A DNA stretch of 64,000 nucleotides from Patescibacteria group bacterium (GCA_050944875.1 JBMNRW010000001.1:85436-149435), one strand, 5' to 3'. Counted from the first letter of the stretch, positions 15,082 through 31,586 are shown. Numbers and translations: made by a program. Notes: generated from the sequence alone by a model not told the origin.

Positions 15082-15124
15082 CGTCGTCTCTTTCTCCCCT
15101 TCCCCTTGGGGCGAGCGCCGCTAC

Positions 15125-15577: not shown

Positions 15578-15579
15578 GG

Positions 15580-16101: not shown

Positions 16102-16109
16102 GTGTCTCC

Positions 16110-16457: not shown

Positions 16458-16466
16458 GTGCTTCCT

Positions 16467-17009: not shown

Positions 17010-17407
17010 GACAGTACCTCGCAAATGACTTCGCCGCCCATATGCCGTCGCTTCGCCTCGGCCCCGGTCATGAGACCGGCAGGCGTCGAGACAATCATGA
17101 GGCCGAAGTCGCCACGTGGCCGCGGAAGCTCTGCTGCGCCACGGTAGATCCGGAGCCCTGGGCGCGAGATGCGTCGGAGCGTTCGAATCGCCGGGATGCC
17201 GCCGTGGTACTTCAGCGTCACGATAAGCTGCTTCTTGACCCCGTCTTCAGCCGTCTCGGTGGCGACGTCCTCGATGTACTCCTTCTCTTTGAGGATCTCG
17301 AGGATGCCAGCCTTGAGGCGGGAGTGCGGGATCACGACCGTCGGCTTCTGGAGCGCGGCGGCGTTTCGGATTCGGGTGAGCATGTCTGCAATTGGGTCCA
17401 TACGCAC
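17006..17407 (-). CDS. rpsH: 30S ribosomal protein S8
   Basis: DPIADMLTRIRNA, S8 family. Confidence 0.95.
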   Translation of the reverse strand: MRMDPIADMLTRIRNAAALQKPTVVIPHSRLKAGILEILKEKEYIEDVATETAEDGVKKQLIVTLKYHGGIPAIRTLRRISRPGLRIYRGAAELPRPRGDFGLMIVSTPAGLMTGAEAKRRHMGGEVICEVLS

Positions 17408-17409
17408 TC

Positions 17410-17595
17410 CTACCAGGATGACTTTACGACGCCGGGGATCTCCCCGCGGCTTGCTCGTTCACGGAAGCAAATCCGGCACAGGCCGAACCGTCGAAGGTAG
17501 CCGTGACCGCGACCGCAGATCCCGCACCGGTTGACCCGGCGAGTCGAGAACTTCGGCCGTCGCTTCGATTTGGCAATCATTGACTTCTTCGCCAT
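17410..17595 (-). CDS. rpsN: 30S ribosomal protein S14, type Z (zinc-binding, 61 aa)
   Basis: [23 protein letters not shown] CxxC...CxxC motif. Confidence 0.95.
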
Positions 17596-17599
17596 AGCC

Positions 17600-18142
17600 T
17601 TAGCTCCGTTTCACGAGTGGGAACCCGAGCGCTCGTAGGAGCGACTCTGCGGCCCGATTGTCGGTTGCTGTTGTGGTAATCGTAATACCGACCCCGTAGA
17701 ACTCCCGGACGTTGTCCTGGTTGATCTCAGGGAAGACGGTGTGTTCGCGAACGCCGAAGCTGTAGTTTCCGCGCCCGTCAAACCCAGTGGTCGGGAGGCC
17801 GCGGAAGTCGCGGATGCGCGGGAGGACAACCGTCACGAGGCGCTGGAAGAAATCTTCCATCCGCTTACCCCGGAGCGTCACCGCGTACCCAACAACCTCA
17901 CCGGCGCGGAGCTTGAACCCGGCAATCGCCTTGCGGGCGGTGCGGGTCACTGGCTTCTGGCCCGTAATGAGCGCCAGGTCGCGGGTAACGATCTCCTCGA
18001 GCCCCTGCGTACCGCGTCGCGAACCCGTGCCGACGTTCACGCTGATCTTCGCGAGGCGTGGTACCGCGTGCGCGTTCTTCACGCCGAGCTCTTTCGTGAG
18101 CGCGGGCGCAACGGTCTTCGTGTACTGCTCTTTGAGGCTCAT
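17600..18142 (-). CDS. rplE: 50S ribosomal protein L5
   Basis: [20 protein letters not shown]..., L5 family. Confidence 0.95.
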
Positions 18143-18402
18143 GCGGTCCTCGCTTTACGGGTCGGTTTGCCGTCGGCGTCGACGCGGAGCACGTTGCTCG
18201 CGTGGACTGCGGCGTTGGTCGTCACGATGCCGCCGTGTGGCTGCTTCGGGGTCGGTTTCGTGTGCTTCTTCACTTCGCCCACGCCCTCAACGACGAGACG
18301 TGATTTCGACGGGAGGACGCGCAGGACCTTGCCGCGCTTCCCCTTGTCCTTGCCGGAGATGACGAGGACGGTGTCGCCGGTTTTGATCTTTAGGGTCGTC
18401 AT
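18139..18402 (-). CDS. rplX: 50S ribosomal protein L24
   Basis: [29 protein letters not shown] motif; start placed just after the rplN stop (ORF extends to 18513). Confidence 0.9.
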
Positions 18403-18403
18403 A

Positions 18404-18772
18404 CTACACCACCTCTGGCGCCAAGGAGACAATCTTCTGGTAGCCGCGGCCGCGAATTTCACGGGCAACCGGTCCGAGGACGCGAGTGCCGCGTGGCTGG
18501 CCGGCGTCGTCAATAATCACCACCGCGTTGTCGTCAAAGCGGATCGTCGAGCCGTCAAAGCGCTGAAATGGCGCGCGCTGGCGGACAATGACCGCCTTCA
18601 CGACCTCTTTGCGCTTCACGGTGCCGCGAGGTAGCGCCTCCTTGACGCTCGCGACGATGATATCGCCGAGCTGGGCAGCATCATGGCTGCGTCCGCCAAT
18701 GACCCGGATGCACTGGATAACCTTCGCGCCGGTGTTATCGGCGACATGGAGTCTGGAGTACGGCTGAATCAT
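18404..18772 (-). CDS. rplN: 50S ribosomal protein L14
   Basis: [25 protein letters not shown]14 family. Confidence 0.95.
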
Positions 18773-19032
18773 GCGAGCTCCTCAACGGTGCTCCCGCGGC
18801 TGACGACTCGCGTCAGCACGTGGCTCTTCCGCTTGCTCACCGGCCGGCACTCCGTGATTTCCACGGTGTCACCGAGGTTGACTGTCATGTCAGTTGGGAC
18901 GTGCACGAGGAACGAGCGCGTCACACGGTACGGCTTCTCGTAGATGGGGTGCCGACGCACGTCTTCGACCCGGACCCGGATGGTCGGGAGGTTGACGTGG
19001 ACGACAGTGCCTGTTTGCGCAGTTCGTGCCAT
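18769..19032 (-). CDS. rpsQ: 30S ribosomal protein S17
   Basis: [33 protein letters not shown]; start placed after the rpmC stop. Confidence 0.9.
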
Positions 19033-19034
19033 GG

Positions 19035-19271
19035 TTAGTTCGCTTTCTCTTTCGCACCCTCGGCGTCCCGGGTCAGTTTCTCCCCGAGAACAGTCCAAAG
19101 CTGCGCCAGTTCACGCTTCGCTGTGCGCAGCTCTTTGAGCGCGCTCACGGTACCAAACCCAACGTCGAATCGCAAGGAACGAATCTTCTCGTACCGGGTA
19201 TCGAGCTCCTTTCGGAGCCACGCCGCGTCCTTGTCGCGGATCGTCTTGAGGAAGTCAGTGTGCTTGGCCAT
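19035..19271 (-). CDS. rpmC: 50S ribosomal protein L29
   Basis: LRKELDTRYEKIRSLRFDVGFG, L29 family. Confidence 0.9.
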   Translation of the reverse strand: MAKHTDFLKTIRDKDAAWLRKELDTRYEKIRSLRFDVGFGTVSALKELRTAKRELAQLWTVLGEKLTRDAEGAKEKAN

Positions 19272-19272
19272 A

Positions 19273-19683
19273 TTAGCTCTCCCTCGTCACGAAGCGGGTC
19301 AGGACGGACAGCTTGTGGGCGCCGAGGCGGAGCGCTTCCTTCGCCTGAGCTTCAGTGACGCCGTCCATCTCGAAGATGATGTTGCCTGGGCGGATGACGG
19401 CGACGAAGTGGTCGAGTGCGCCCTTTCCGCTCCCCATCGGCTTTTCTGGTGAGCCGGCAGTGACTGGCTTATCGGGGAAAATGCGGATCCAGACTTTTCC
19501 ACCGCGCTGGATGTAGCGGGTGATTGCTCGCCGCGCAGCTTCGATCTCGCGTGAGCTCATCCAGCCGCGGGTCGTGGCCTTCAGGCCGAACTTTCCGAAC
19601 GCGACGCTGTTGCCGCGCAGGGCGTAGCCGCCGCGCTTGCCGCGGTGCTGCTTCCGGTGCTTGAGTTTCTTCGGCAGTAACAT
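19273..19683 (-). CDS. rplP: 50S ribosomal protein L16
   Basis: [20 protein letters not shown]16 family. Confidence 0.95.
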
Positions 19684-19692
19684 GCTCGCTCC

Positions 19693-20427
19693 TTACCGGC
19701 CCTGGCGGTCTTGCGTCGCTGTAGCTGGGGCGACTGGCCGCTCGCCGCGGTAGATCCAGACCTTCACCCCGATCGTGCCGTACGACGCGGTCTTCGCATC
19801 CACGTGCGCGTAGTCAATTTCATTTTTCAGGGTTGAGAGCGGGACGGTCCCTTCAGCGTACTTCTCGCGGCGGGCAATGTCCGAATCGTTCAAGCGACCG
19901 CTCACGGAGATCTTCATCCCCTGGGCGCCGCGCTGCATCGTCTTCTCGATGGCCTGGCGAACGGCGCGTCGGTACGGGAACCGGTTCTCAATCTGGCTCG
20001 CAATCGTCTGGGCGACGAGCATCGCGTAGAGTTCCGGCGCCTTGATCTCGACGATCTCAATCTTTAAGCCGGCCGGGAGCGACTTCTTCCGCTCGTTCTC
20101 GCTCCGGACGTACTGTCGGAGGTTCTTGTCTCGGAACGATTGCAGCGTGCGCGCCATTTTCTCGCGCATCGCCTTAATGCCAGCGCCGCCGCGACCAATC
20201 ACCACGCCCGGCTTCGCCGTGTGGATGATAATCTTGACGTCCTGCGGGCTTCGCTCGATCTCGACACGCTCGATCGCCGCGTTCTTGCCGTACGTCACGT
20301 CGATCAGGCTGCGGATCGCCGCGTCCTCAATGACGTTGTACGCGATCATATGGTTCGCGAACCACTTCGAGCGCCAGTTCTTCGTGAGCGGCAGGCGGTT
20401 CGAGATAGGGTTGGTCTTGTGGGTCAT
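19693..20427 (-). CDS. rpsC: 30S ribosomal protein S3
   Basis: KH domain and S3 C-terminal domain (GRGGAGIKAMRE). Confidence 0.95.
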   Translation of the reverse strand: MTHKTNPISNRLPLTKNWRSKWFANHMIAYNVIEDAAIRSLIDVTYGKNAAIERVEIERSPQDVKIIIHTAKPGVVIGRGGAGIKAMREKMARTLQSFRDKNLRQYVRSENERKKSLPAGLKIEIVEIKAPELYAMLVAQTIASQIENRFPYRRAVRQAIEKTMQRGAQGMKISVSGRLNDSDIARREKYAEGTVPLSTLKNEIDYAHVDAKTASYGTIGVKVWIYRGERPVAPATATQDRQGR

Positions 20428-20885
20428 GCCTGCTCCTTCTTCGTCGTGCGGCGCTTCGGGGTCGCGGCAGCCGTCTGCTCGGTCTTCGGTGTCTCAGCCT
20501 TCGCTTCGGCAGCCTTGGGCTCAGCCTTTGGCGCTGGAGCCTTTGGTGTCACGATCGGCTCAACCGAGAGCGTCAGGTGCGACCCGCGCTTCGCGAACCG
20601 GCCAGCCCGGCCCTTGCTCTTCCGGCGGGTGCGGTAGAGCCGCATCGCGTCGTTGCAGAATACCTCGGCCACCCGGAGGTCGGTGCCCTTGAGGTTTGGG
20701 TTCTTGTCTTGCGCCGCAGAGATTGAGGCGCGCAAGAGCTTGCGGAGCGGTTCAGCCGTAAGGCGTGGTGAGGCGTCGAGGCGAGCAATCGCGTTCGCAA
20801 CGACCGCGCCGCGGACATGGTGTAGTACCGCGCGGAGCTTGCGCGGAGGAATCGGGAGTCGGTTGTAGTGGACGGTAACGCGCAT
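20424..20885 (-). CDS. rplV: 50S ribosomal protein L22 with Ala/Pro/Lys-rich C-terminal extension
   Basis: L22 core plus ~45-aa low-complexity tail. Confidence 0.9.
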   Translation of the reverse strand: MRVTVHYNRLPIPPRKLRAVLHHVRGAVVANAIARLDASPRLTAEPLRKLLRASISAAQDKNPNLKGTDLRVAEVFCNDAMRLYRTRRKSKGRAGRFAKRGSHLTLSVEPIVTPKAPAPKAEPKAAEAKAETPKTEQTAAATPKRRTTKKEQA

Positions 20886-20893
20886 ACGTGTCC

Positions 20894-21172
20894 TTACTTC
20901 GCCGGCTCAGCAGCGGCTTTGCCACCGTGGCGTCGGAACTTCCGTGTCGGCGAGAACTCGCCGAGCTTGTGCCCGACCATATCCTCGACAACGAGGACGC
21001 TGATGAAGTCGCGGCCGTTGTGGACCTGGAACGTGAGACCCACCATCTCTGGTGTGATCGTCGACGAGCGTGCCCACGTCTTGATCGGCGACGGCTTTGA
21101 ACGGTCGGCCTGCTCCACCTTCTTCATGAGTTTCGGGTCTACGAACGGACCTTTTTTCAGTGATCGGCTCAT
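20894..21172 (-). CDS. rpsS: 30S ribosomal protein S19
   Basis: [20 protein letters not shown]19 family. Confidence 0.95.
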
Positions 21173-21177
21173 GGCTC

Positions 21178-22023
21178 CTACTTCCTGCGCCCGCTGTGGC
21201 GGCTATGGACGATGTAGACGTTCGTCCGTCGGTTCTTTCGCGTCTTGTACCCAAGCGCCGGCTTACCCCATGGGGTTTTCGGGTGCTTGAGACCGATCGG
21301 CGAGTGGCCTTCACCACCACCGTGCGGGTGGTCATTCGGGTTCATCGACTTCCCGAGCACTTCTGGTCGGCGGCCCATGTGGCGCTTACGACCAGCCTTC
21401 CCGATTACGACAGACGAGTGCTCTGGGTTCGAGACCGTGCCGAGCGAAGCGTACGCAGTCGTGAGGACGCGTCGGACTTCGCCACTCGGGAGCTTAACCT
21501 GGGCGTAGCGGCCGTCATCCTCATGGGCGACGAGCGTGGCGTGTGTGCCGGCGGATCGGACCATCTGGCCTTTGCGATTCGGGTCGATCGCGATCTCGTA
21601 GATCGTGAAGCCGCGAGGGATGTTCTTCAGCGGAAGGCGGTTGCCGGGTTCGAGCAGGGCTTCAGCGCCGTGCTCCAGCACCTGACCAACCTTCATCTCC
21701 TGGCCAGCAAGAATGTACGCCTTCGTGCCGTCTTCGTAGCTTACGAGGGCGATGTTCGCGCTGCGGTTCGGGTCGTACTCAAGCGCAATGATCGTGGCGG
21801 TCGCTGACGTGCCCCGCTCGAGCGTGGAGATGATACGGTACTTGCGCTTGTTGCCGCCGCCCCGGTGGCGGATAGAGATGTGGCCAAACCGGTCACGACC
21901 GGCGTGCTTCTTGAGCGCCTCGGTGAGGGATTTCTCCGGCCGCTTCTTCGTGAGATGCGTCTGCTTGTTGACGGTCATCCCACGCTGGCCAGGGGTAGTC
22001 GACTTGCGTTCAATGATAGGCAT
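21178..22023 (-). CDS. rplB: 50S ribosomal protein L2
   Basis: L2 signature region and HPHGGGEG motif. Confidence 0.95.
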
Positions 22024-22025
22024 GG

Positions 22026-22361
22026 CTACTTCTTCTCCACTGCGTCGTGCGCGTGGTCGTGCTCATGGGTGTGGTCGTGGTCGTCCGCGGTCGGGACAGA
22101 GAGCTCGAAACCCGCGATCTTCTCGCCGGCCTTGAGGCGGACAATTGCCTTCGCTCGCTCCTGCGTGGCGCCGCGGCGCTTCGGCTTACTCGGACGCTTC
22201 GCGATGTTCACGTCTTCGACAGTCACCTTGTACGCCTGGCGGACTGCCTGGGCGATACCGAGCTTCGTCGCCCAGCGTGGGACGATGAAGGTGTACACGC
22301 CGCCTTCGGCGGACCGGAGCGACTTCTCGGTCACGAGTGGGAGGAGGGAGATTGTTCTCAT
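22026..22361 (-). CDS. rplW: 50S ribosomal protein L23 with His/Asp-rich C-terminal tail
   Basis: MRTISLLPLVTEKSLRS...; start placed after the rplD stop; C-terminus ...ADDHDHTHEHDHAHDAVEKK. Confidence 0.9.
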   Translation of the reverse strand: MRTISLLPLVTEKSLRSAEGGVYTFIVPRWATKLGIAQAVRQAYKVTVEDVNIAKRPSKPKRRGATQERAKAIVRLKAGEKIAGFELSVPTADDHDHTHEHDHAHDAVEKK

Positions 22362-23011
22362 TTCGCCGCCTTTGGCGCTGGGTTCTTCGCTGCTTTCGGA
22401 GCTGCCGGCTTCACGCCAATCCGATTCGCGAGCACGGTCCATGCGGCATCGTCAGCGACGATTTGCCCGGCACGGAGGATGTCACGGACGGTAGCGCGGT
22501 GCGCCGATTGGACGGTCACGCCCTCGAGGTTCTGGCTAGCGCGCGCGAGGAGCGGGGCGCTCATCTCACCGTGGAGGATGAGGAGTTGCTTCGCCGTAAT
22601 TACATCGTCCCGGAGCGCGTCGATCACCGACTTCGCTTTGCCGTCGGTTGGCCAGGCGTTCACCGTGAAGAGGCGCTTTGTCGCCGCGGCGTCAGCGAGC
22701 GCCGCTTTGAGCACTGCCTGCTTCGTGCGCTCGTTCACTGCTTGGGTGTAGTTCCGCTCTTTCTTCGGGCCGTGGGCAACGCCACCGGTCCGCCAGACAG
22801 GGTTACGTGACGAACCAACGCGGGCGTGTCCAGTACCCTTCTGTCGCCAGGGCTTCTTGCCGCCACCGCGGATGTCGCCGCGGGTGAGCGTGTGCGAACG
22901 GGCAACGCGCTCGTTCGCCTCGTACGCCTTCACGACGAGCGCGACAGCGACCGGCGAGACGTCGGTCGTGCCGACGAGTGCATCGAACTGCGTGGCCTGG
23001 GTGACGCTCAT
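22358..23011 (-). CDS. rplD: 50S ribosomal protein L4
   Basis: GGGKKPWRQKGTGHAR, L4 family. Confidence 0.95.
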   Translation of the reverse strand: MSVTQATQFDALVGTTDVSPVAVALVVKAYEANERVARSHTLTRGDIRGGGKKPWRQKGTGHARVGSSRNPVWRTGGVAHGPKKERNYTQAVNERTKQAVLKAALADAAATKRLFTVNAWPTDGKAKSVIDALRDDVITAKQLLILHGEMSAPLLARASQNLEGVTVQSAHRATVRDILRAGQIVADDAAWTVLANRIGVKPAAPKAAKNPAPKAAK

Positions 23012-23649
23012 GCTACCTCACCTTCTAGGTGGCGCGGCGAAATCGAGAGTTCGACGAGCGCACCCTTAATGCCTGGTACGGCGCCCTTGATCACGAGGAG
23101 GTGGTCCGAGGCAATGACGTCGAGCACCTCGAGGTGCTTCACCGTCACGCGCTCGTCACCCATGTGGCCAGCCATACGCTTGCCAGGAATGACGCGCTGC
23201 GGCTGCTGCGCACCGATCGAGCCCGGCCGGTTCACGTTCATCGAGCCGTGGCTCCGTGGCCCCTGGGCGAAGTTGTGTCGCTTCACTGTACCAGTGAACC
23301 CGTGCCCCTTGCTCGTCGCAACGGCGTTCACGATGTCGCCGCGCTTGAACACGTCCACCGTGATCTCGCTGCCGAGCTCTGGGAGCGTGGCAGCGGTGTC
23401 GGCAGGGCGAACCTCACGAAAGACATGGCCGGTCTCGGTCTTTGCCTTCTTCGCGTGGCCCTGCTGCGGCTTCTTCGCCTTCGTGGCGTCGCCAAAGCCG
23501 ACCTGTACGGCGACGTAGCCGTCCGTGTCGGTCGTCTTCACCTGCGTGACCACGTTGGGCGTGGCCTGGATAACGGTCGCACTGACGAGGTTACCCTCGC
23601 GGTCGAGCGCGCGCGTCATCCCAACTTTTCGTCCGAGTATGAACTGCAT
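23008..23649 (-). CDS. rplC: 50S ribosomal protein L3
   Basis: MQFILGRKVGMTRALDREGN, L3 family; separated from rpsJ by a 3.4-kb insertion. Confidence 0.95.
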   Translation of the reverse strand: MQFILGRKVGMTRALDREGNLVSATVIQATPNVVTQVKTTDTDGYVAVQVGFGDATKAKKPQQGHAKKAKTETGHVFREVRPADTAATLPELGSEITVDVFKRGDIVNAVATSKGHGFTGTVKRHNFAQGPRSHGSMNVNRPGSIGAQQPQRVIPGKRMAGHMGDERVTVKHLEVLDVIASDHLLVIKGAVPGIKGALVELSISPRHLEGEVA

Positions 23650-23808
23650 ACACCCTCATTTATGGGCACGTACGAAAAAGGGCCGGGATCTGTCCACCTT
23701 GGGCGGCGATTTCCCGACTCACCCTGCTCGCACTGTTAGGGGTTCGCTGAACTTCTTGGGGCAGTGTACGTGTTTAGAGACACCTTGTCAACGGCTACGT
23801 GCCGGCGG

Positions 23809-23837
23809 TTGACCAGAGTGGCACTACCCGTTACGGT
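23809..23837 (+). promoter_or_regulatory. candidate sigma70-type promoter for dut (TTGACC-N17-TACGGT)
   Basis: -35 TTGACC (23809-23814), 17-nt spacer, -10 TACGGT (23832-23837), ~50 nt upstream of the SD/ATG. Confidence 0.3.
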
Positions 23838-23886
23838 CGCACCGAGCTTTGCCCTTTTCCATTTTCTCGATTGGAGAACACCAATA

Positions 23887-24579
23887 ATGGAGAGTCTTTC
23901 GGTAGCAACGCAATCGACCCCGCGTTCTAACACTCCGCCGTACCCGCCGATCCGCGTCTTTCTCCTGCCAGGCGGCATGTTGCCGCAACGGATGAGCGCC
24001 GGAGCTGCCGGGTTTGATGTCTACGTCCGGGCAGTAGTGTCGGCAACGGGACTCGACGGGGAAGGACGGTTTCGCAGAACGCTCTTCGACTTCGAATCGC
24101 TGCGGGATCCGAACGTGGATCTGTACACGTACTACCGGGTAATTCGGAAACCGGACGGTTCGCTTGCGTATCGGCTCAATGCGGGTGAGCGCGTGACGCT
24201 CGGCATCGGCTTCGCCACGGAGTTTCCCTCCCCTGAGTTCTTCTGGGTGTCGCCGCGCTCCGGCCTGGCGTCGAAGCAAGGGGTTACGATTGGCAACGCG
24301 CCTGGGACGATTGACGCCGACTATCGGGGCGAAGCATGCGTCGTCCTTATTAACGGCAATGTACCGTCGCCACACGCTAACCTACCCTACGTCCGCAGTC
24401 GTGGTACCCGGATTGATTTCGCATTCGACATCACGCGAGGGATGCGGGTTGCGCAAGCGCTCTTTGGACGAGCTGGCGTTCCTGAGCTCCAGCTCGTTGA
24501 GCACTACGATGCGCTCACAGCAAGTGAACGTGGTTCCGGCGGCCTGGGTTCGACCGGACTCATTGATCATTGCGAGTAG
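23887..24579 (+). CDS. dut: divergent dUTP diphosphatase (all five dUTPase motifs, with insertions)
   Basis: Motif I AGFDV, II PRSG, III GTIDADYRGE, IV RVAQAL, V ERGSGGLGSTG; ~55-aa insertion between motifs I and II and ~12 aa between III and IV; start at ATG 23887 with GGAGAA SD (ORF track starts earlier at 23764). Confidence 0.7.
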   Translation: MESLSVATQSTPRSNTPPYPPIRVFLLPGGMLPQRMSAGAAGFDVYVRAVVSATGLDGEGRFRRTLFDFESLRDPNVDLYTYYRVIRKPDGSLAYRLNAGERVTLGIGFATEFPSPEFFWVSPRSGLASKQGVTIGNAPGTIDADYRGEACVVLINGNVPSPHANLPYVRSRGTRIDFAFDITRGMRVAQALFGRAGVPELQLVEHYDALTASERGSGGLGSTGLIDHCE

Positions 24580-24610
24580 CGACAAGTGAAGGCAGTAAAC
24601 GCAGCAATTT

Positions 24611-24638
24611 GACGGCGCGAAAGCGCCGTCTTCTTTTA
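24611..24638. terminator. terminator shared by convergent dut and TerC-like gene
   Basis: GACGGCGC-GAAA-GCGCCGTC hairpin followed by TTCTTTTAT on plus. Confidence 0.6.
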
Positions 24639-25562
24639 TGTAAGAGCAGGTGTTCGGGCCTGCTCCCGAACCGACCGCCAGAAGAAGTAGCTAATGATAA
24701 GAATCGTGACAATCGGCGAGAACCAGTGTGGTACGTGAACACCGAACGCATCGGCGAGCATGACGCCGCCAAGGACGAGCACGGAGTACATAGCTCCGTT
24801 CTTTAAGTACGCGTACCGCTTAATGCGCTCTACGTTGCCGACCGTAAGCTGGCGTACAACGATTGCGCCAATGCCATTACCAAGGAGGATGAGTGGCACA
24901 GAGAGCGTAAATGCGAATGCGCCCAGTACGCCGTCAATGGAAAACGTCGCGTCGATCGCTTCGAGACACAAGATTTTCGACAGGTCTGACAGATGGCCCG
25001 TTCCCGCTACGAGGTCTGCCTCTGCTCTCTCCGCCTGCGCTTTGAAGCCATGGGTAATGAAGAAGGCAGTGGAGCCGACGACGGCGCCGAATGCGAGGAG
25101 TGGATCCACTCGGAGCGCAAACCAGACAAGCGCAGAGAGGAGGATTGACACGACGGCGTAGAACCAAATACCTGTTCGCTGGAACAGTCGCTCGTGGCGG
25201 AGGCCAAAGTTCTTCTGCTCCAAGAAGAGCCAGTGGAAGAAGAGGAAGACGAGGAACGTCCCGCCGCCGGCGAGGAGGACGGGCGCAGCGGCCTCGATCG
25301 CCTCAATGACGTGCGGGTCGTTTGAGAAGGTCGCAGTTATCGCTTCGATCGGTCCAAGGCCAGGCGTGGCGAGTCAGACGATCAGCCATGGCAAGAGGCC
25401 GCGGATCAAGAAGACCGCAATGAGTATGCCCCAGACAAGAAACCAGCGCCGAGCCTTTTCCTTCATTGTAGAGAGTACTTCGGCGTTGATGATCGCGTTG
25501 TCGATACTCGAGACGGTCTCGAAGAGTCCGAGTACAATGAGTAGAGAGGACCAAATATCCAT
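24636..25562 (-). pseudogene. TerC-family integral membrane protein interrupted by an in-frame TGA (pseudogene, sequencing error or readthrough)
   Basis: N-terminal part (ATG 25560-25562, MDIWSSLLIVLGLFETVSSIDNAIINA) carries TerC motif 1; after TGA at 25374-25376 the same frame continues without ATG/GTG through motif 2 (LEAIDATFSIDGVLGAFAFT) to the stop at 24636. The ORF track's upstream extension (MAWKRSLVRIQYGPP) is the translated tRNA-Ala. Confidence 0.65.
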
Positions 25563-25589
25563 GGCGCAAGCGTAACGCGCGCAGTACAA

Positions 25590-25612
25590 CAAAATAACGC
25601 CGGGCGGCGTTG
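25590..25612 (-). terminator. terminator downstream of tRNA-Ala
   Basis: Minus strand AACGCC-GCCC-GGCGTT followed by ATTTTGTTG. Confidence 0.45.
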
Positions 25613-25628
25613 TTCGGTAGGTATGCAG

Positions 25629-25704
25629 TGGTGGACCGTACTGGATTCGAACCAGCGACCTCTTCCATGCCATGGAAGCGCTCTACCAACTGAGCTAACG
25701 GCCC
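25629..25704 (-). tRNA. tRNA-Ala (anticodon GGC)
   Basis: GGGCCGTTAGCTCAGTTGGTAGAGCGCTTCCATGGCATGGAAGAGGTCGCTGGTTCGAATCCAGTACGGTCCACCA: cloverleaf with G3:U70, A73, anticodon loop AU-GGC-AU, encoded CCA. Confidence 0.9.
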
Positions 25705-25762
25705 AAGTGCGCGTGACGTCGGTATTCTACCCTGGAGGTCGACGGAGAGCAAGACTGCGGGT

Positions 25763-26266
25763 ATGCTTGACCTTGTGACTATAGCGCTTATTCTCCACAT
25801 TATCGGTGCGGTACTCGGCGTAGGCGGCGCAACATACAACGACCTCCTGCTGGTGCGTGCAATCGGCGACCGTGAGCTTGGGCCGGCGTACCAGAAGAAC
25901 GCCGCAGCATTCTCACTTGTCATCTGGACGGCGATCGCGCTCCTCGTCGCGACGGGACTATTCTTCGTCGTCAATGACACCTCGCTGCTGGCGAACCAAA
26001 AGTTCCTGACAAAGCTCAGCCTCGTCGTGCTTCTCGTCGTGAACGGCGGACTCATGAATTCGCTGTTTCAGCCGCCACTCGAGCGACTTCGCGCCATCGA
26101 CTGGGCCGAACGAACACCCGCGCTCTGCCGACTCGTCCGAGGCGCACTCCCCTTCGCGAGCATCTCCATTGTGACGTGGTACACCGTGCTGATTTTCGGA
26201 GCGCAGGCACGCAGCCGTGGACGACAGCACAGATTCTTCCTTGGTACGTCGGCGCTATCGTGGTAA
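25763..26266 (+). CDS. hypothetical integral membrane protein (4 TM)
   Basis: 167-aa ORF with four hydrophobic helices; no recognisable family. Confidence 0.5.
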   Translation: MLDLVTIALILHIIGAVLGVGGATYNDLLLVRAIGDRELGPAYQKNAAAFSLVIWTAIALLVATGLFFVVNDTSLLANQKFLTKLSLVVLLVVNGGLMNSLFQPPLERLRAIDWAERTPALCRLVRGALPFASISIVTWYTVLIFGAQARSRGRQHRFFLGTSALSW

Positions 26267-26400
26267 ACTACCTCGTCGCGCTCTTCGTACTCGAACAGCG
26301 CCTCGGCGCGGTCCGCTAGCGATCGCGCTCTTGCTTCATACCTGTTCTCCAGGTACGTTTTCTATACTCTTTTCAAACCCGAATGCCGGAGGATAGCTGT

Positions 26401-26994
26401 ATGCAACGCGGACACGCAATCCGACCCCTCGAGCGCGCTGAGGACAGTCAGGAACCCTGGGTGTTCCTCGCGGGCCCGATTCAGGGCGCGGCCGACTGGC
26501 AGGCCCAGGCGATCGAGCTCCTGCACGCAATTGACCCAGTGCTCAACATCGCGAACCCGCGCTCAGCTGAACCATTTCACGGGAACTGGCGCGCGCAGGT
26601 GCACTGGGAATCATACTACCTTCGACTCGCCGCTTTGACCGGCTGTATACTCTTCTGGGGCGCGGAAGAGCAGAAACACACCTGCAATCGTGCGTACGCA
26701 CAGACGACGAGATTCGAACTCGGTGAGTGGTTCGCCCTTCATCAGTTCCTCCACTGCCAAGTCGTGATTGGTTGCCACACAAGATTTACCGGTATGCGTT
26801 ATCTGTGTGAGCGGTACTTCTTCACACCAACCGAATCGGTTCGCGTCCACCATAACCTCGAGGCCGTCTGCACTGAGGCTGCCGCCCGGGCGCGAATGCA
26901 CACTGAGCGCGGCACACGTCGGGAAAGCGCATTTAAGGACTCGCCGCTCAATCTCAATTACTACAGGCAATTTCTCGAAAACTTGCTTTCGTAA
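26401..26994 (+). CDS. nucleoside 2-deoxyribosyltransferase / DNPH1 (Rcl)-like protein
   Basis: WVFLAGPIQGAADW resembles the N-terminal YF(A/C)G(P/S) nucleotide-binding motif and TTRFELGEW the catalytic xELG motif of the NDT/DNPH1 fold; start at the second ATG (GGAGGA SD). Confidence 0.45.
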   Translation: MQRGHAIRPLERAEDSQEPWVFLAGPIQGAADWQAQAIELLHAIDPVLNIANPRSAEPFHGNWRAQVHWESYYLRLAALTGCILFWGAEEQKHTCNRAYAQTTRFELGEWFALHQFLHCQVVIGCHTRFTGMRYLCERYFFTPTESVRVHHNLEAVCTEAAARARMHTERGTRRESAFKDSPLNLNYYRQFLENLLS

Positions 26995-27001
26995 AACAAA
27001 T

Positions 27002-27033
27002 AAAAGAGCGGACCCCATTCGGGATCCGCTCTT
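27002..27033. terminator. strong rho-independent terminator after rpsJ (minus) and the NDT-like gene (plus)
   Basis: AAGAGCGGACCCCATTCGGGATCCGCTCTT hairpin; on minus followed by TTTATTTGTTTT. Confidence 0.7.
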
Positions 27034-27051
27034 CTTCTGTACCAAGCCGAG

Positions 27052-27387
27052 TTAGCCAGTCTTCACTTCGACGTCGACGCCAGCCGGAAGGTCGAGGCTC
27101 ATGAGTGCGTCAATCGTTTTCGAGGTCGGCGAGAGCACGTCGATGAGTCGCTTATGAATCCGCTGCTCGAACTGCTCGCGTGCGTCCTTGTGCTTGAAGG
27201 TGGAACGGAGCACCGTCACCTTCTTCACTTCCGTCGGGAGCGGGATCGGCCCGTTCACGGTTGCGCCCGTGCGCTTCGTCGTATCGAGGATCTTCCGTGC
27301 CGACTGGTCGATGACGCGGTAGTCGTACGCCTTGAGGCGGATGCGGATCCGCTGCGAGGCTGAAGTTGGAGTGCTCTTCGCTGACAT
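27052..27387 (-). CDS. rpsJ: 30S ribosomal protein S10
   Basis: [23 protein letters not shown]10 family. Confidence 0.95.
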
Positions 27388-27421
27388 AAGGTGCTAGCTC
27401 GCTTGCTCTGCTGGTACTTGG

Positions 27422-28606
27422 TTACTTCTCGATCGAGGTGACGACGCCGGCACCGACGGTCTTACCGCCCTCGCGGATGGCGAATCGCATACCCTGCTCG
27501 ATGGCAACCGGGACGAGAAGCTTCACCTTGAAGGTGATCGTATCGCCAGGCATGACCATCTCAGTGCCCTCTGGGAGCTCGACTTCGCCGGTCACGTCCG
27601 TGGTGCGGATGTAGAACTGCGGCTTGTAACCCTTGAAGAATGGGGTGTGTCGTCCACCTTCTTCTTTGGTGAGGATGTACACTTCAGCGGTGAACTCGGT
27701 GTGCGGGGTAATTGAACCCGGCTTCGCGAGAATCTGGCCGCGCTCGATGTCATCGCGCTCGACACCGCGGAGGAGGACGCCGACGTTATCGCCAGCCTGT
27801 CCCTGGTCGAGTTCTCTGCGGAACATCTCGACGCCAGTGACAGTGGTCTTGCGGGTGTCCTTGAGACCGACGATTTCGATTTCTTCGCCGACCTTGACGA
27901 CGCCACGGTCGATACGGCCGGTCGCAACGGTGCCGCGACCCTTGATCGAGAAAACATCTTCGACGGCCATGAGGAACGGCTTGTCCGTCTCACGAGCTGG
28001 CTCAGGGATCGCTTCGTCGAGCGCCTTGATGAGCTCCATGATCTGGTCCTGGTAATGCGCATCGCCCTCGAGCGCCTTGAGCGACGAGCCGCGGATGATC
28101 TTCGCATTGTCGCCGTCGTACTCGTACTTCGAGAGGAGCTCGCGGATTTCCATCTCAACGAGGTCGAGGAGTTCTGGGTCGTCAACCATGTCACACTTGT
28201 TCAGGTAGACGACGATCTCTGGAACGCCAACCTGGTGTGCGAGGAGGATGTGCTCGCGGGTCTGCGGCATTGGACCGTCAGCGGCCGAAACGACGAGAAT
28301 CGCGCCGTCCATCTGCGCCGCACCCGTGATCATGTTCTTCACGTAGTCGGCGTGACCTGGACAGTCGACGTGCGCGTAGTGGCGCTTCTCGCTCTCGTAC
28401 TCGACGTGCGCGACCGCGATCGTAATTCCACGCTCTTTTTCCTCTGGCGCAGTGTCGATCTGGTCAACAGCCTTATCGTCGGCCGTAAAGCCCTTATCTT
28501 TGAGGGTCTTGAGGATTGCAGCCGTCGTCGTGGTCTTACCGTGGTCGACGTGACCGATGGTGCCGACGTTGACGTGCGGCTTTGTCCGCTGGAACTTCTC
28601 AGCCAT
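27422..28606 (-). CDS. tuf: elongation factor Tu
   Basis: [21 protein letters not shown] motifs; 394 aa. Confidence 0.98.
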
Positions 28607-28691: not shown

Positions 28692-30809
28692 CTACTTCTT
28701 CCGGCCAGCAATGATCTCTTCCTGGACGTTGCGCGGCACTTCCTCGTACCGGTAGAACTCCATGGAGTAGGCTGCCCGGCCCTGCGTCATCGAGCGGAGG
28801 CTCGTCGCGTACCCGAACATGTTCGAGAGCGGCACCTTCGCCGTGATAACCTTCGCGTTCCCGCGCTCCGTATTCCCTTCGATCCGGCCCCGCTTCGCGT
28901 TTAAGTCGCCCATGACGTCGCCAAGGAAGTCTTCTGGCGTTGTCACCTCGACCGACATAATCGGCTCGAGGATGATCGGGTCAGCCTTCTTCACTGCGTC
29001 CTGGAGCGCCATTGAACCGGCGACCTGGAACGCCATTTCCGAGGAGTCGACGTCGTGGTACGACCCGTCGAAGAGCCGCGCCTTGATGTCGATGAGCGGG
29101 TAGCCAGCGATCACACCACGCGTGAGCGCTTCCTTGATCCCCTTCTCGATCGGGTTGATGAACTCCTTCGGAATGACACCACCGACGATCGCGTTCTCAA
29201 AGAGGAACGTTTCGTCTGGGTGCTCGGTGCGGTCTTCCTCGGAGAGCGGGAAGATCTCGATGACCGCGTGGCCGTACTGACCGCGTCCACCGGTTTGCCG
29301 AACGAACTTACCCTCGCCCTTTGCGTCTTTGCGAATCGTTTCGCGGTACGCAACCTGCGGCGCGCCAACGGTCGCCTCAACCTTGAACTCGCGCTTCATG
29401 CGGTCGACGATAATCTCGAGGTGGAGCTCACCCATGCCAGCGATGATCGTCTGGCCGGTTTCCTCGTCCGTGCGAACGCGGAACGTCGGGTCTTCTTCGG
29501 CGAGGCGCGACAGAGCGACGCCCATCTTCTCCTGGTCGGCCTTGCTCTTTGGTTCGACTGCGACGTGGATGACTGGCTCTGGGAAGGTAATTGACTCGAG
29601 CTTTACCGGGTGGTCGAGGTCGCAAAGCGTGTCGCCGGTCATGCCGTCGAGACCGACGACCGCTGCGATGTCGCCGGCGTAGAGCTCTTTCACTTCCTCG
29701 CGCTGGTTCGCGTGCATGCGGAGGATGCGCCCGATGCGCTCTTTCTTGCCGGTGTTGGCGTTCAGGACGTACGTCCCAGCGTTCAGCTGGCCCGAATAGA
29801 CGCGGATGAACGCGAGCTTGCCGACGAACGGGTCGGCCGCGATCTTGAAGAGGAGCGCGCTAAACGGCTCAGCGTCGTCGGCGTGTCGCTCGATCTTCTC
29901 TTCCTCGTTCTTCGGGTTCGTGCCCTGGATCGCGGGAATATCGAGCGGGCTCGGCAGGAAGTACGTCACCGCGTCGAGGAGGAGTTGGACGCCTTTGTTC
30001 TTCAAGGCAGAGCCGGTGAACACCGGAACGATCCGGTTAGAGACGACGCCCTTGCGGAGCGTGGTAATAAGCTCATCAACGGTCAGGGCTTCGCCGCCGA
30101 GGTACTTCTCAAGCATCGCGTCGTCGAGCTCCGCGATCTTCTCAACGAGCTTGTCGCGCCACTCCTTGGCCTGCTCAGCGTACTCGGCCGGAATGTCGGT
30201 CTCCTGCACGTCGGTCCCGAGCTCATTTGTGTAGATGTAGGCGCGCTCCCGAATGAGGTCGATGAGGCCGGTGAAGTCGCCTTCGGCGCCGATCGGCAGC
30301 TGGGCCGGAATCGCGTTCGCGCCGAGGCGGTCGAGGATCGAATCGTACGAACGGAAGAAGTCCGCGCCGGTGCGGTCGAGCTTGTTGATGAAGCAGATGC
30401 GCGGGACTTCGTACTTGTCAGCTTGGCGCCAGACGGTCTCGGACTGCGGTTCAACGCCAGCGACGCCGTCGAACACGACGACAGCGCCGTCGAGCACACG
30501 GAGCGACCGCTCGACTTCGACGGTGAAGTCGACGTGGCCTGGGGTGTCAATGATGTTGATCCGGTGCTTGTCCGACGGATTCGTCGTCGGCGCCCAGAAC
30601 GCGGTGGTCGCAGCTGAGGTGATCGTGATGCCGCGTTCGCGCTCCTGTTCCATCCAGTCCATCTCGGCTGCGCCCTCGTGGACCTCGCCGATCTTGTACT
30701 TCTTCCCGGTGTAGAAGAGGATGCGCTCCGTTACGGTTGTCTTCCCCGCATCGATGTGCGCGGCAATACCGATGTTGCGCGTCTTCTCCAGGCTGTACTC
30801 TCGTGGCAT
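28692..30809 (-). CDS. fusA: elongation factor G
   Basis: [17 protein letters not shown]; 705 aa. Confidence 0.98.
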
Positions 30810-30942: not shown

Positions 30943-31515
30943 CTAGAACATCTCGAACTCGCTCGGAGGACGAGCAACCGCCCAGCGAACCGCCCGACCG
31001 ATCTGCTGCTTCGTGAATAAATTCTGGCTACTGCGGAGAAACACTTGCGCAGCCTCACCAGAGAGCTTTCCGAGATGGACATTCTGGTACTCTCGATTGT
31101 CGGTCACTTCGATCGCACCTTGTGCCCAGGCCGGTAGTACATACACCTCTGCGTCCTCTGTCGTCGGGAATTCCCGTTCCATCAGCACAAGGCCGTCGAG
31201 CTCACCGGCAAAGACATCAATCTCTTCACCCGTCTCCGTAACTCGGCGCGACTTCATGATTGCATCAGTCGAGATTCCCCAGAGCTCCTCAAAGAGCCAC
31301 TCTGGAATCTTGACCTCCCACTCGTTGCGCGCCCGAAGTCCTGCGCCTTTTGCTATGAGGGTGAACTGCTCACCGTCGCGACGAGTGGCAGTCCGACGAA
31401 CGCGCAGCACCACGCCTGGGTGCTCCGCGACGTAGGCTTGGAAGATCGCAGTCTGTGAGTGAACCGGCGCGTCGCTCGGTAAGTGCGGCAGAAGCCACTT
31501 GCGCTCAATTTCCAT
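30943..31515 (-). CDS. CYTH-domain protein (triphosphate tunnel metalloenzyme; class IV adenylyl cyclase / triphosphatase-like)
   Basis: N-terminal MEIERKWLL (ExExK CYTH signature) plus downstream acidic residues; ATG at 31513-31515 preceded by AGGAGG; inserted between rpsG and fusA. Confidence 0.65.
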   Translation of the reverse strand: MEIERKWLLPHLPSDAPVHSQTAIFQAYVAEHPGVVLRVRRTATRRDGEQFTLIAKGAGLRARNEWEVKIPEWLFEELWGISTDAIMKSRRVTETGEEIDVFAGELDGLVLMEREFPTTEDAEVYVLPAWAQGAIEVTDNREYQNVHLGKLSGEAAQVFLRSSQNLFTKQQIGRAVRWAVARPPSEFEMF

Positions 31516-31586
31516 CACTGCCTCCTGATTGGATAGGATCGTTCCCTGAAGGACTTGCTTCAAGGTGCTGCATTACTACAAAATAG

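What the first reader, a model, noticed from the sequence alone, without database searches (positions are those of the whole stretch)
23650..27051. 3.4-kb non-ribosomal island splits rpsJ from rplC and carries a nucleotide-sanitation gene pair, tRNA-Ala and a TGA-interrupted TerC gene
rpsJ directly precedes rplC in nearly all bacteria. Here the two are 3.4 kb apart, and the rpsJ side ends with its own strong terminator (27002-27033). The insert encodes a divergent dUTPase with extra insertions (23887-24579). It also encodes a DNPH1/nucleoside-2-deoxyribosyltransferase-like protein (26401-26994). Both act on deoxynucleotides, so they could form a small dUTP/dNMP sanitation or salvage module. 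The insert further holds an unknown 4-TM protein, a TerC-family gene with an in-frame stop, and tRNA-Ala(GGC). No integrase or terminal repeats were seen, so it looks like a fixed insertion rather than an active mobile element.
Basis: partly seen in the sequence, partly recalled or inferred. Interest (0 to 1): 0.6.

Follow-up and report, generated by a model that had tools for sequence, protein, structure and literature searches.

The report
Old variable spacer between rpsJ and rplC
The 3.4 kb of non-ribosomal DNA between rpsJ and rplC is real, but it is an old, clade-wide gap with turning-over content in a Berkelbacteria-like bacterium, not a recent island or a nucleotide-cleaning module, so it is mostly ordinary genome evolution.

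Summary
rpsJ (27052-27387, -) and rplC (23008-23649, -) lie 3,402 nt apart. Between them are a long-type dUTPase, a DUF475/TerC-family gene with an in-frame TGA, tRNA-Ala(GGC), a small membrane-protein gene and a PF15891 NDT-like gene.

- The genome is a Patescibacteria MAG near Candidatus Berkelbacteria. In every relative I could examine, rpsJ ends the fusA-tuf-rpsJ unit and rplC starts a separate cluster.
- Two relatives keep the same core after rpsJ: a membrane-protein ortholog followed by tRNA-Ala(GGC). One also keeps a DUF475 relic before rplC. The split and this core are therefore ancestral.
- Only the NDT-like gene and the dut position are lineage-specific.
- dut and the NDT-like gene are probably functional enzymes by motifs and predicted fold. 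They are separate transcription units and never co-localise in 122 other NDT-like loci.
- The TGA is a strain-specific TGG-to-TGA mutation; the sister strain's gene is intact. The membrane-protein gene is also frameshifted here.
- In the sister strain the sequence diverges at the tRNA-Ala 3' end into at least 6.7 kb of defence-like genes. The 3' two-thirds of its NDT-like gene is a recombination-imported allele (dS about 3 versus 0.01-0.03 in flanking genes).

Interest is low to moderate.

The parts
27052..27387 (-). rpsJ (S10), the last gene of the fusA-tuf-rpsJ unit
   Evidence: Pfam PF00338 E 4e-35. It starts 34 nt after the tuf stop. The same tuf-rpsJ end of the unit is seen in relatives L178 and L179.
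27002..27035 (.). Two-way intrinsic terminator shared by rpsJ (-) and the NDT-like gene (+)
   Evidence: 15-bp stem. On the - strand it folds at -29.6 kcal/mol (z -5.3) and is followed by UUUUAUUUGUUUUA. On the + strand it folds at -20.7 kcal/mol (z -4.6) with a weaker U tract.
26401..26994 (+). NDT-like gene (PF15891 family, 197 aa), convergent with rpsJ; a lineage-specific addition
   Evidence: PF15891 scores 29.7 bits against a gathering score of 30. All 19 invariant residues of a 54-sequence family alignment are present. AlphaFold2 pLDDT is 86.5, and the best Foldseek match is 4mcj at E 4e-6, followed by DNPH1 and 1s2l. The gene is absent from the equivalent position in L178 and L179.
25763..26319 (+). 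Membrane-protein gene, ancestral neighbour of rpsJ. In this strain a 1-nt deletion after 26202 shifts the frame, so the ORF as read ends at 26266.
   Evidence: The sister strain encodes 185 aa with an extra C-terminal hydrophobic helix. Orthologs of 179-180 aa (39-47% identity) lie downstream of rpsJ on the opposite strand in L178 and L179 and align up to residue 181. Only weak CopD and DUF2269 Pfam hits were found.
25629..25704 (-). tRNA-Ala(GGC) with encoded CCA; a conserved landmark of the spacer and the point where the sister strain diverges
   Evidence: Found by ARAGORN and Rfam at 66.6 bits. tRNA-Ala(GGC) sits at the equivalent place in L178 and L179. L083 shares only the last 9 nt, GGTCCACCA, and is then unrelated.
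24636..25562 (-). DUF475 (TerC-family) membrane-protein gene, inactivated in this strain by TGG-to-TGA at 25374-25376 and carrying a 6-nt in-frame deletion
   Evidence: Pfam DUF475 matches on both sides of the stop. The sister strain L083 has an intact 310-aa gene with TGG (Trp) at that codon, and the 84%-L3 relative also has Trp. NCBIfam NF010612 scores 454 bits against a cutoff of 386 for the intact allele. TGA ends 17 of 67 long ORFs in the window.
24611..24630 (+). Terminator-like hairpin after dut
   Evidence: 8-bp stem with 7 G-C pairs, followed by UCUUCUUUUAUG; -18.5 kcal/mol, z -3.4.
23887..24579 (+). dut, a long-type trimeric dUTPase (230 aa), divergent from rplC
   Evidence: Pfam PF00692 scores 47.1 bits. 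The best PDB sequence match is 3mbq at E 1.3e-17, with motifs II-V aligned. Motif I and a ~45-aa insert after it are shared with a small 'long dUTPase' subfamily, while an 18-aa insert between motifs III and IV is private to this protein. AlphaFold2 pLDDT is 86.3, with target-normalised TM-scores of 0.88-0.90 to dUTPases.
23763..23791 (-). Promoter-like site upstream of rplC (TTGACA, 17 nt, TACACT)
   Evidence: 10 of 12 consensus matches, 114-142 nt upstream of the rplC start. This is a consensus match only, not evidence of function.
23008..23649 (-). rplC (L3), the first gene of the rplC-rplD-rplW-rplB... cluster
   Evidence: Pfam L3. It is 99% identical to the sister strain and 54-84% identical to relatives whose rplC also lacks an adjacent rpsJ.

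Best explanation
The interval is the lineage-typical spacer between two separately transcribed translation-gene units in a Berkelbacteria-related Patescibacteria genome. The units are ...fusA-tuf-rpsJ, closed by a strong terminator, and rplC-rplD-..., preceded by its own promoter-like site.

The break between rpsJ and rplC predates this species. Its ancestral core is a small membrane-protein gene lying tail-to-tail with rpsJ, then tRNA-Ala(GGC), then a DUF475/TerC-family gene upstream of rplC.

Content around that core turns over. This lineage gained a PF15891 NDT-like gene between rpsJ and the membrane-protein gene, and it has a long-type dUTPase next to rplC. Relatives carry CYTH, PNPOx, redox or NAD-salvage genes instead. 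In a sister strain the sequence diverges exactly at the tRNA-Ala 3' end into at least 6.7 kb of defence-like genes.

In the sequenced strain two core genes are newly broken: DUF475 by TGG-to-TGA, and the membrane-protein gene by a 1-nt deletion.

dut most likely works as an ordinary dUTP diphosphatase. The NDT-like protein is most likely an N-glycosidase or transferase acting on deoxynucleosides or deoxynucleotides in salvage. The two act independently, not as a module.

Shown: the gene identities, the synteny in relatives, the strain differences and the folds. Inferred: the transcription units, the enzyme activities and integration at the tRNA.
For: Taxonomy:
- The NCBI name for the NDT-like protein is 'Patescibacteria group bacterium'.
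- The nearest named L3 and S10 proteins are from Candidatus Berkelbacteria.

Synteny:
- L178: fusA-tuf-rpsJ-[CYTH, membrane-protein ortholog, tRNA-Ala(GGC), two further genes, a 36-codon DUF475 relic]-rplC. The gap is 3,544 nt.
- L179: rpoBC-rpsLG-fusA-tuf-rpsJ-[membrane-protein ortholog, Pyr_redox_2, tRNA-Ala(GGC)...], with no rplC within 10 kb.
- L085 and L086 (L3 84% identical): DUF475 lies directly upstream of rplC.
- L087, L088, L089 and L091 have no rpsJ within 5-8 kb upstream of rplC. L091 has a 226-aa long dUTPase about 1.5 kb upstream of rplC.

Strain comparison:
- L083 is 99.5% identical to the window over 13008-25640. It is then unrelated from the last 9 nt of the tRNA onward.
- That extra DNA encodes a HEC-05/GmrSD-like protein (E 7e-47), a PLD nuclease, a C-protein-type HTH protein and a TnsA-like N-terminal domain.
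- L083 has an intact DUF475 gene with TGG where the window has TGA.
- The membrane-protein gene is frameshifted in the window.

Enzymes.

Transcription signals.

The arrangement is not an assembly artefact. L081, from a separate Logan assembly, is 100% identical to the window over 25656-27938.
Against: - Only a few relatives could be examined, and most are short metagenomic contigs. 'Ancestral core' rests on three lineages: the window, L178 and L179.
- In the sister strain the defence segment and the rpsJ side sit on two different contigs (L083 and L082). Insertion at the tRNA is therefore inferred, not read through. No integrase or full att repeat was seen.
- Promoters and terminators are consensus or folding predictions.
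- No enzyme activity was tested. The NDT-like protein scores just below Pfam's gathering score, and its substrate is unknown.
- No second assembly covers the TGA, so a sequencing error in the MAG cannot be excluded.
Confidence: 0.8

Rival explanations
1. One reading: a 3.4-kb block was inserted into a formerly adjacent rpsJ-rplC pair and became fixed. Its dut and NDT-like genes form a small dUTP/dNMP sanitation or salvage module.
For: Both enzymes are real and both act on deoxynucleotide-type substrates by family. Both appear to be lineage-specific additions in the positions they occupy here.
Against: The split, the membrane-protein gene, the tRNA and DUF475 are shared with relatives. dut and the NDT-like gene lie at opposite ends of the spacer, 1.8 kb apart, and dut has its own terminator. 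No dUTPase lies near an NDT-like gene in any of 122 loci. L091 has the long dut near rplC with no NDT-like gene in the 6 kb upstream. The only recurrent NDT-like neighbour is an HD-domain gene.
Confidence: 0.08
2. The spacer, or its rpsJ-proximal part (the NDT-like gene), is the decayed remnant of a mobile element or phage that integrated at tRNA-Ala. The NDT-like gene would be phage-derived cargo.
For: The PF15891 family occurs in 36 IMG/VR viral contigs, many of them 100-430 kb. Its closest homolog outside the species sits in a phage-like 106-kb contig. The 3' two-thirds of the gene was exchanged by recombination between strains. The adjacent tRNA is where the sister strain diverges.
Against: The spacer has no integrase and no att-like repeat of the tRNA 3' end. 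The NDT-like gene lies on the 5' side of the tRNA, beyond the conserved membrane-protein gene, not at the 3' end where the sister strain diverges. GC content is only mildly lower than in the flanks, 0.55-0.61 against 0.59-0.66. Cellular homologs are as close to it as viral ones.
Confidence: 0.1
3. The arrangement is an assembly or binning artefact (a chimeric MAG contig), and the TGA and the frameshift are sequencing errors.
For: The window comes from a metagenome-assembled genome. The TGA region is covered by only one assembly of this strain.
Against: Independent Logan assemblies reproduce 25656-27938 exactly (L081) and 13008-25640 at 99.5% identity (L083). L178 shows the same rpsJ...rplC architecture on a single contig. 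The 1-nt deletion in the membrane-protein gene is present in L081.
Confidence: 0.02

Closest known systems
Breaks and small insertions at operon boundaries of the conserved rpoBC-str-S10-spc-alpha cluster (Brandis 2021, PMC8046335)
   Same: A few unrelated genes sit between translation-gene units. After such an insertion the gene order decays further in descendants, up to full disconnection. The same pattern appears here: L178 has a 3.5-kb gap and L179 has more than 10 kb.
   Different: The published Gammaproteobacteria and Bacilli cases lie between tuf and rpsJ (str|S10). Here the break is one gene later, between rpsJ and rplC, so rpsJ belongs to the str-type unit. It is also anchored by a tRNA gene.
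The rpsJ-with-tuf arrangement of archaea, cyanobacteria and plastids (from my own knowledge; not checked with the tools) and of Coriobacteriia (seen here)
   Same: rpsJ follows the elongation-factor genes and is separated from rplC. In my genome sample, 20 of 74 informative loci, mostly Coriobacteriia, have rpsJ 2-8 kb from rplC or absent within at least 5 kb.
   Different: This is a different lineage (Patescibacteria) with different intervening genes. Independent origin is likely but was not tested.
Trimeric dUTPase (Dut, PF00692)
   Same: All five catalytic motifs are present, and the fold matches M. tuberculosis, R. prowazekii and human dUTPases with target-normalised TM-scores of 0.88-0.90.
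   Different: It is 230 aa rather than about 150. A ~45-aa structured insert after motif I is shared by a small subfamily (14 cluster representatives at E<=1e-30 out of 10,925 dUTPase-like hits). A private 18-aa loop of low model confidence lies between motifs III and IV. Motif V has Leu in place of the usual Phe. It scores below NCBIfam's equivalog cutoffs, 92.6 against 103.
PF15891 'nucleoside 2-deoxyribosyltransferase like' proteins (structure 4mcj, BDI_0649) and, more distantly, DNPH1/Rcl and nucleoside 2-deoxyribosyltransferases
   Same: The fold matches (Foldseek probability 1.0, target-normalised TM-score about 0.70 to 4mcj and 0.67 to DNPH1). The N-terminal FLAGPIQG and QVxWE motifs align to 4mcj. 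The family's invariant RFELGE glutamate is present.
   Different: No member of PF15891 has a tested activity that I could find. Sequence similarity to DNPH1 is not significant. This protein has a ~35-aa C-terminal extension absent from most homologs.
tRNA-adjacent genomic islands and defence islands
   Same: In the sister strain the unrelated DNA starts at the 3' end of tRNA-Ala and encodes GmrSD-like/HEC-05, PLD-nuclease and C-protein-like genes.
   Different: The window itself carries no such island, no integrase and no att repeat. The far end of the island was not recovered in the sister strain.

Membership tests
Trimeric dUTPase (PF00692) | Pfam model score above the gathering threshold | tested here: met
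   47.1 bits against a threshold of 22, E 2.6e-12.
Trimeric dUTPase (PF00692) | Five conserved motifs (I AGxD, II PRSG, III GxIDxDYRGE, IV RxAQ, V RGxGGxGSTG) | tested here: met
   The motifs read AAGFDV, SPRSGL, GTIDADYRGE, MRVAQ and ERGSGGLGSTG. They align with solved dUTPases and with 24 homologs. Motif V has Leu where Phe is usual.
Trimeric dUTPase (PF00692) | dUTPase beta-barrel fold | tested here: met
   AlphaFold2 pLDDT 86.3. Foldseek E 6e-13, target-normalised TM-scores 0.88-0.90, rmsd about 2 A to 7n6s, 8xhm and 1slh.
Trimeric dUTPase (PF00692) | NCBIfam equivalog-level score (dUTP diphosphatase) | tested here: not met
   NF001862 scores 92.6 against a cutoff of 103. TIGR00576 scores 87.4 against 102.55. 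The insertions split the match.
Trimeric dUTPase (PF00692) | Hydrolysis of dUTP to dUMP + PPi; homotrimer | not testable with these tools
   Needs an enzyme assay and an oligomer analysis.
PF15891 Nuc_deoxyri_tr2 | Pfam model score above the gathering threshold | tested here: inconclusive
   29.7 bits against 30, E 8.4e-7. Nearly all of its 120 listed homologs carry the precomputed PF15891 label.
PF15891 Nuc_deoxyri_tr2 | Family-invariant residues | tested here: met
   All 19 invariant columns of the 54-sequence alignment are present, including G25-P26-I27, W69-E70 and R104-F105-E106.
PF15891 Nuc_deoxyri_tr2 | Fold of the family's solved member (4mcj) | tested here: met
   Foldseek E 4e-6, probability 1.0, target-normalised TM-score 0.69-0.71. 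The family profile matches the 4mcj sequence at E 1.1e-6.
DNPH1 / nucleoside 2-deoxyribosyltransferase (PF05014-type) | Significant sequence similarity | tested here: not met
   No PDB sequence hit other than 4mcj.
DNPH1 / nucleoside 2-deoxyribosyltransferase (PF05014-type) | Catalytic glutamate nucleophile in the equivalent structural position | not tested
   Invariant E106 in RFELGE is the candidate. No residue-level superposition was available.
DUF475 / TerC family membrane protein | Intact full-length ORF matching the family model | tested here: not met
   The window copy has TGA at codon 63. Pfam matches on both sides of the stop. The sister-strain copy meets the test: NF010612 scores 454.5 against a cutoff of 386.
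Integrated mobile element / genomic island | Integrase or recombinase gene | tested here: not met
   None of the four protein genes in 23650-27051 matches one.
Integrated mobile element / genomic island | Flanking direct repeats (att), typically a copy of the tRNA 3' end | tested here: not met
   Searches find only the tRNA itself.
Integrated mobile element / genomic island | Absent from the same site in close relatives | tested here: not met
   The core genes are present at the same site in L178, L179 and L085/L086. Only the NDT-like gene is absent there.
Diversity-generating retroelement target (considered for the variable NDT-like 3' part) | Adenine-specific substitutions and a nearby template repeat | tested here: not met
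   All 12 substitution types occur and third codon positions dominate (100 against 46 and 41). No repeat of the region was found.

The most novel reading that the evidence does not exclude
In this Patescibacteria clade the rpsJ|rplC spacer, in the middle of the most conserved gene cluster of bacteria, is a tRNA-Ala-anchored hot spot where flexible, conflict-related genes are exchanged. One strain holds a GmrSD/PLD defence segment there. The neighbouring PF15891 NDT-like gene belongs to a family shared with large phages and exists as two deeply diverged alleles in otherwise 99%-identical strains. It could be a nucleotide-directed defence or counter-defence enzyme, for example one that cleaves modified phage deoxynucleotides, rather than a housekeeping salvage enzyme.
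Probability: 0.1. Interest if true: 0.55.

Novelty: new member of a known kind. Interest (0 to 1): 0.22.

Why it matters
Mostly as a correction. An apparent 'island' inside the ribosomal super-operon is the normal state of a whole candidate-phyla-radiation lineage. Gene-order expectations taken from model bacteria should not be used to call insertions in such genomes.

Smaller points may be useful to specialists:
- rpsJ travels with tuf in this clade.
- A tRNA-Ala inside the cluster marks a site of strain-level variation.
- A 'long' dUTPase subfamily exists.
- The uncharacterised PF15891 family is widespread in cells and large phages, and it repeatedly neighbours an HD-domain gene.

None of these opens a long-standing question.

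Tried and rejected
It served as a background sample but not for close synteny.
- Recoded TGA (genetic code 4 or 25) was rejected. TGA ends 17 of 67 long ORFs in the window, and the sister strain has TGG at that codon.
- A diversity-generating retroelement as the cause of the variable NDT-like 3' part was rejected on the substitution spectrum and the lack of a template repeat. In-situ diversifying selection was rejected because dN/dS is about 0.1 with saturated dS.
- PADLOC gave no hit for dut, the NDT-like protein or the membrane protein.
- NCBIfam gave no hit for the NDT-like protein or the membrane protein.
- Rfam found nothing in the spacer beyond the tRNA. Two sub-threshold L20-leader matches simply overlie the terminator.
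- A literature search for PF15891 / Nuc_deoxyri_tr2 returned no papers.
- hhalign of the NDT-like family against DNPH1 was not significant.
- A search for att-like copies of the tRNA 3' end was negative.
- Pfam found nothing for the ORF between rpsG and fusA, even at E<=5.
- Neighbour-gene profiling of 80 NDT-like loci found only an HD-domain gene as a recurrent partner (8 of 65 upstream neighbours).

Full report
**1. What is in the sequence**

The ribosomal cluster runs on the minus strand. Its order is rpsL, rpsG, an unassigned ORF, fusA (28692-30809), tuf (27422-28606), rpsJ (27052-27387), then a gap of 3,402 nt, then rplC (23008-23649), rplD, rplW, rplB and onward.

The gap holds the following, in order from rplC to rpsJ:
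- dut, 23887-24579 (+)
- a DUF475/TerC-family gene, 24636-25562 (-), in one frame with a single TGA at 25374-25376
- tRNA-Ala(GGC), 25629-25704 (-)
- a small membrane-protein ORF, 25763-26266 (+)
- a PF15891 NDT-like gene, 26401-26994 (+)

A 15-bp hairpin at 27002-27035 follows rpsJ. It folds at -29.6 kcal/mol (z -5.3) and has a U-rich tail. The opposite strand also folds, so it can serve the convergent NDT-like gene as well. dut has its own hairpin at 24611-24630. A 10-of-12 sigma-70-like site lies 114-142 nt upstream of rplC.

There are no terminal repeats, and no second copy of the tRNA 3' end exists in the window. GC content in the gap is 0.55-0.61, against 0.59-0.66 in the flanks, which is only a mild dip.

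**2. Whose genome it is, and which genetic code**

NCBI lists the NDT-like protein as coming from a 'Patescibacteria group bacterium' MAG with a 175-kb contig. The nearest named L3 proteins (54-64% identity) and S10 proteins (86-88%) are from Candidatus Berkelbacteria. TGA terminates 17 of 67 long ORFs in the window, so the standard bacterial code applies.

**3. Is the gap an insertion? Synteny in relatives**

No examined relative has rpsJ next to rplC.
- L178 is a Berkelbacteria MAG contig (S10 86%, L3 62% identical). It reads fusA-tuf-rpsJ, then CYTH, a 180-aa gene on the opposite strand, tRNA-Ala(GGC), a 296-aa gene, PNPOx and a 76-aa gene, then rplC. Its gap is 3,544 nt.
- L179 (S10 88% identical) reads rpoB-rpoC-rpsL-rpsG-fusA-tuf-rpsJ. 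A 179-aa gene on the opposite strand, Pyr_redox_2, tRNA-Ala(GGC) and at least 8 kb of other genes follow, with no rplC.
- The 179-180-aa genes are orthologs of the window's membrane protein, at 39-47% identity.
- L178 also keeps a 36-codon relic of the DUF475 N-terminus about 530 nt upstream of rplC. The aligned stretch is 77% identical to the window protein over 35 residues.
- In the relative with 84% L3 identity, DUF475 lies directly upstream of rplC.
- Four further relatives (L3 62-68% identical) have unrelated genes and no rpsJ for 5-8 kb upstream of rplC. One of them, L091, has a 226-aa long-type dUTPase (48% identical) about 1.5 kb upstream of rplC.

The break is therefore clade-wide. 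The trio of membrane-protein gene, tRNA-Ala(GGC) and DUF475 is its old core. The NDT-like gene, and the exact position of dut, are additions in this lineage.

The break also occurs outside this clade. Among 74 informative loci from other genomes, rpsJ and rplC were adjacent in 54. They were 2-8 kb apart in 10, and rpsJ was absent within at least 5 kb in another 10. Nearly all the non-adjacent cases are Coriobacteriia, and the sample is biased. Published work documents comparable small insertions, followed by loss of linkage, at the neighbouring str|S10 boundary (PMC8046335).

**4. Strain-level differences**

A Logan assembly of a second sample, SRR23967303, contains a sister strain.
- Contig L083 is 99.5% identical to window 13008-25640. 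Upstream of that it shares only the last 9 nt of the tRNA (GGTCCACCA) and then continues for 6.7 kb of unrelated DNA.
- That DNA encodes a HEC-05/GmrSD-like protein (PADLOC E 7e-47), DUF2779, a PLD nuclease, a C-protein-type HTH protein and, at the contig end, a TnsA-like N-terminal domain.
- Contig L082 from the same sample carries tuf, rpsJ, the NDT-like gene, the membrane-protein gene and the 5' half of the tRNA, and it stops inside the tRNA.

The simplest reading is that a defence-type segment is inserted at the 3' end of tRNA-Ala. This is inferred, because the two contigs are not joined.

The sister strain's DUF475 gene is intact at 310 aa. It has TGG (Trp) where the window has TGA, and the 84%-L3 relative also has Trp there. 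The window copy additionally lacks 6 nt. The sister strain's membrane-protein gene encodes 185 aa. The window has a 1-nt deletion after 26202 that replaces the last hydrophobic helix, and the L178 and L179 orthologs align to the 185-aa form. A separate assembly, L081, is 100% identical to window 25656-27938, so the frameshift is reproduced there. The TGA has no such second witness.

**5. The NDT-like allele**

Between the two strains the flanking DNA is 96-100% identical. Window 26500-27000, the 3' two-thirds of the NDT-like gene, is only 39-80% identical at the nucleotide level, and the whole protein is 67% identical.
- Substitutions are of all types and are concentrated at third codon positions.
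- For codons 34-197, dN is 0.32 and dS is 3.2 (saturated). In the neighbouring genes dS is 0.01-0.03.
- By my reading of the pairwise alignment, both alleles keep the family-invariant residues.

This is replacement by recombination with a distant allele. It is not a retroelement-driven or in-situ hypervariable region.

**6. The two enzymes**

dut:
- It has all five dUTPase motifs and matches solved dUTPases by sequence (3mbq, E 1.3e-17).
- Its predicted structure (pLDDT 86.3) matches dUTPases with target-normalised TM-scores of 0.88-0.90.
- It belongs to a small 'long' subfamily with a structured ~45-aa insert after motif I. That subfamily has 14 cluster representatives at E<=1e-30, out of 10,925 dUTPase-like hits.
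- It also has a private 18-aa loop of low model confidence between motifs III and IV.

The NDT-like protein:
- It sits just under the PF15891 threshold, at 29.7 against 30 bits.
- It has 457 homologs at E<=0.001 and retains all 19 invariant residues of the family alignment.
- Its model has pLDDT 86.5. The best structural matches are 4mcj (a structural-genomics 'putative nucleoside deoxyribosyltransferase'), then human DNPH1, then a purine deoxyribosyltransferase.
- Sequence similarity to DNPH1 is not significant. I found no paper on the family.

**7. Are they a pair?**

No dUTPase lies within 4-5 kb of an NDT-like gene in 86 metagenomic loci (426 kb in total), nor within 3 kb in 36 viral loci. 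The only recurrent neighbour is an HD-domain gene immediately upstream, in 8 of 65 loci and also in a Parcubacteria genome. That fits a role in deoxynucleotide or deoxynucleoside salvage, without any link to dut.

The family is also present in large phage genomes, and its closest homolog outside this species lies in a phage-like contig. Genome-wide co-occurrence of the two genes could not be tested.

**8. Verdict**

The stretch is a real but ordinary feature. It is an ancient, variable spacer between two translation-gene units in a candidate-phyla-radiation lineage, with a conserved core, lineage-specific additions, a tRNA-linked variable site and two freshly broken genes in this strain. It is not a recent island and not a demonstrated functional module.

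The least ordinary aspects are the defence-type segment at the tRNA inside the ribosomal super-cluster and the deep allelic replacement in the uncharacterised NDT-like gene. Both are leads rather than findings.

Noticed in passing
window 30943-31563 (-), likely start ATG at 31515: A ~190-aa ORF of unknown family sits between rpsG and fusA, preceded by a terminator-like hairpin after rpsG. In relative L179 rpsG and fusA are 25 nt apart. The ORF begins MEIERKWL, which resembles the ExExK start of CYTH proteins. It aligns weakly (E 0.009) with the CYTH gene that follows rpsJ in L178, but Pfam gives no hit even at E<=5.
   Followed up: partly
L083 1-6729 (sister strain, Logan SRR23967303): A defence-like segment abuts the 3' end of tRNA-Ala. 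It encodes a TnsA-like N-terminal domain (partial ORF), a HEC-05/GmrSD_N+SLFN_AlbA_2 protein of 711 aa, DUF2779 (489 aa), a 354-aa unknown protein, a PLDc_2 nuclease and a C-protein-like HTH protein. Its far end and any integrase were not recovered.
   Followed up: partly
window 26500-27000 versus L082 835-1330: The 3' two-thirds of the NDT-like gene is a deeply diverged allele (dS about 3.2, dN 0.32) between strains whose flanking DNA is 96-100% identical. The breakpoints lie near 26500 inside the gene and at the terminator.
   Followed up: yes
window 25374-25376 and 26202: Both membrane-protein genes of the spacer are disrupted in this strain: DUF475 by a nonsense codon and the CopD-like small protein by a frameshift. 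Both are intact in the sister strain. DUF475 is also reduced to a 36-codon relic in L178 (5189-5293). This may be repeated loss of the same function.
   Followed up: partly
L095-L097 and 8 of 65 metagenomic loci (L098-L177): PF15891 NDT-like genes are repeatedly preceded by an HD-domain phosphohydrolase gene, with stop and start nearly overlapping in a Parcubacteria genome. This looks like a possible two-gene operon.
   Followed up: partly
L180-L215 (IMG/VR) and L092: The PF15891 family occurs in 36 viral contigs, many of them 100-430 kb, and in a phage-like 106-kb JGI contig.
   Followed up: no
L179 14192-17166: In this Berkelbacteria relative the DNA after tRNA-Ala carries a LOG-like gene (LDcluster4), NAPRTase and a PRPP-synthetase-like gene. 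So nucleotide and NAD salvage genes occupy the analogous variable region.
   Followed up: no
window 55845-56192 (-): Bacterial RNase P RNA class A (160 bits) lies next to tRNA-Gln (55726-55799). tRNA-Val is at 62642-62718.
   Followed up: no
window 22026-22442 (-): The longest ORF for rplW (L23) has a ~27-codon N-terminal extension. It also ends in a His/Asp-rich tail (DHDHTHEHDHAHD). The sister-strain gene call is 111 aa, so the true start is probably the internal ATG.
   Followed up: no
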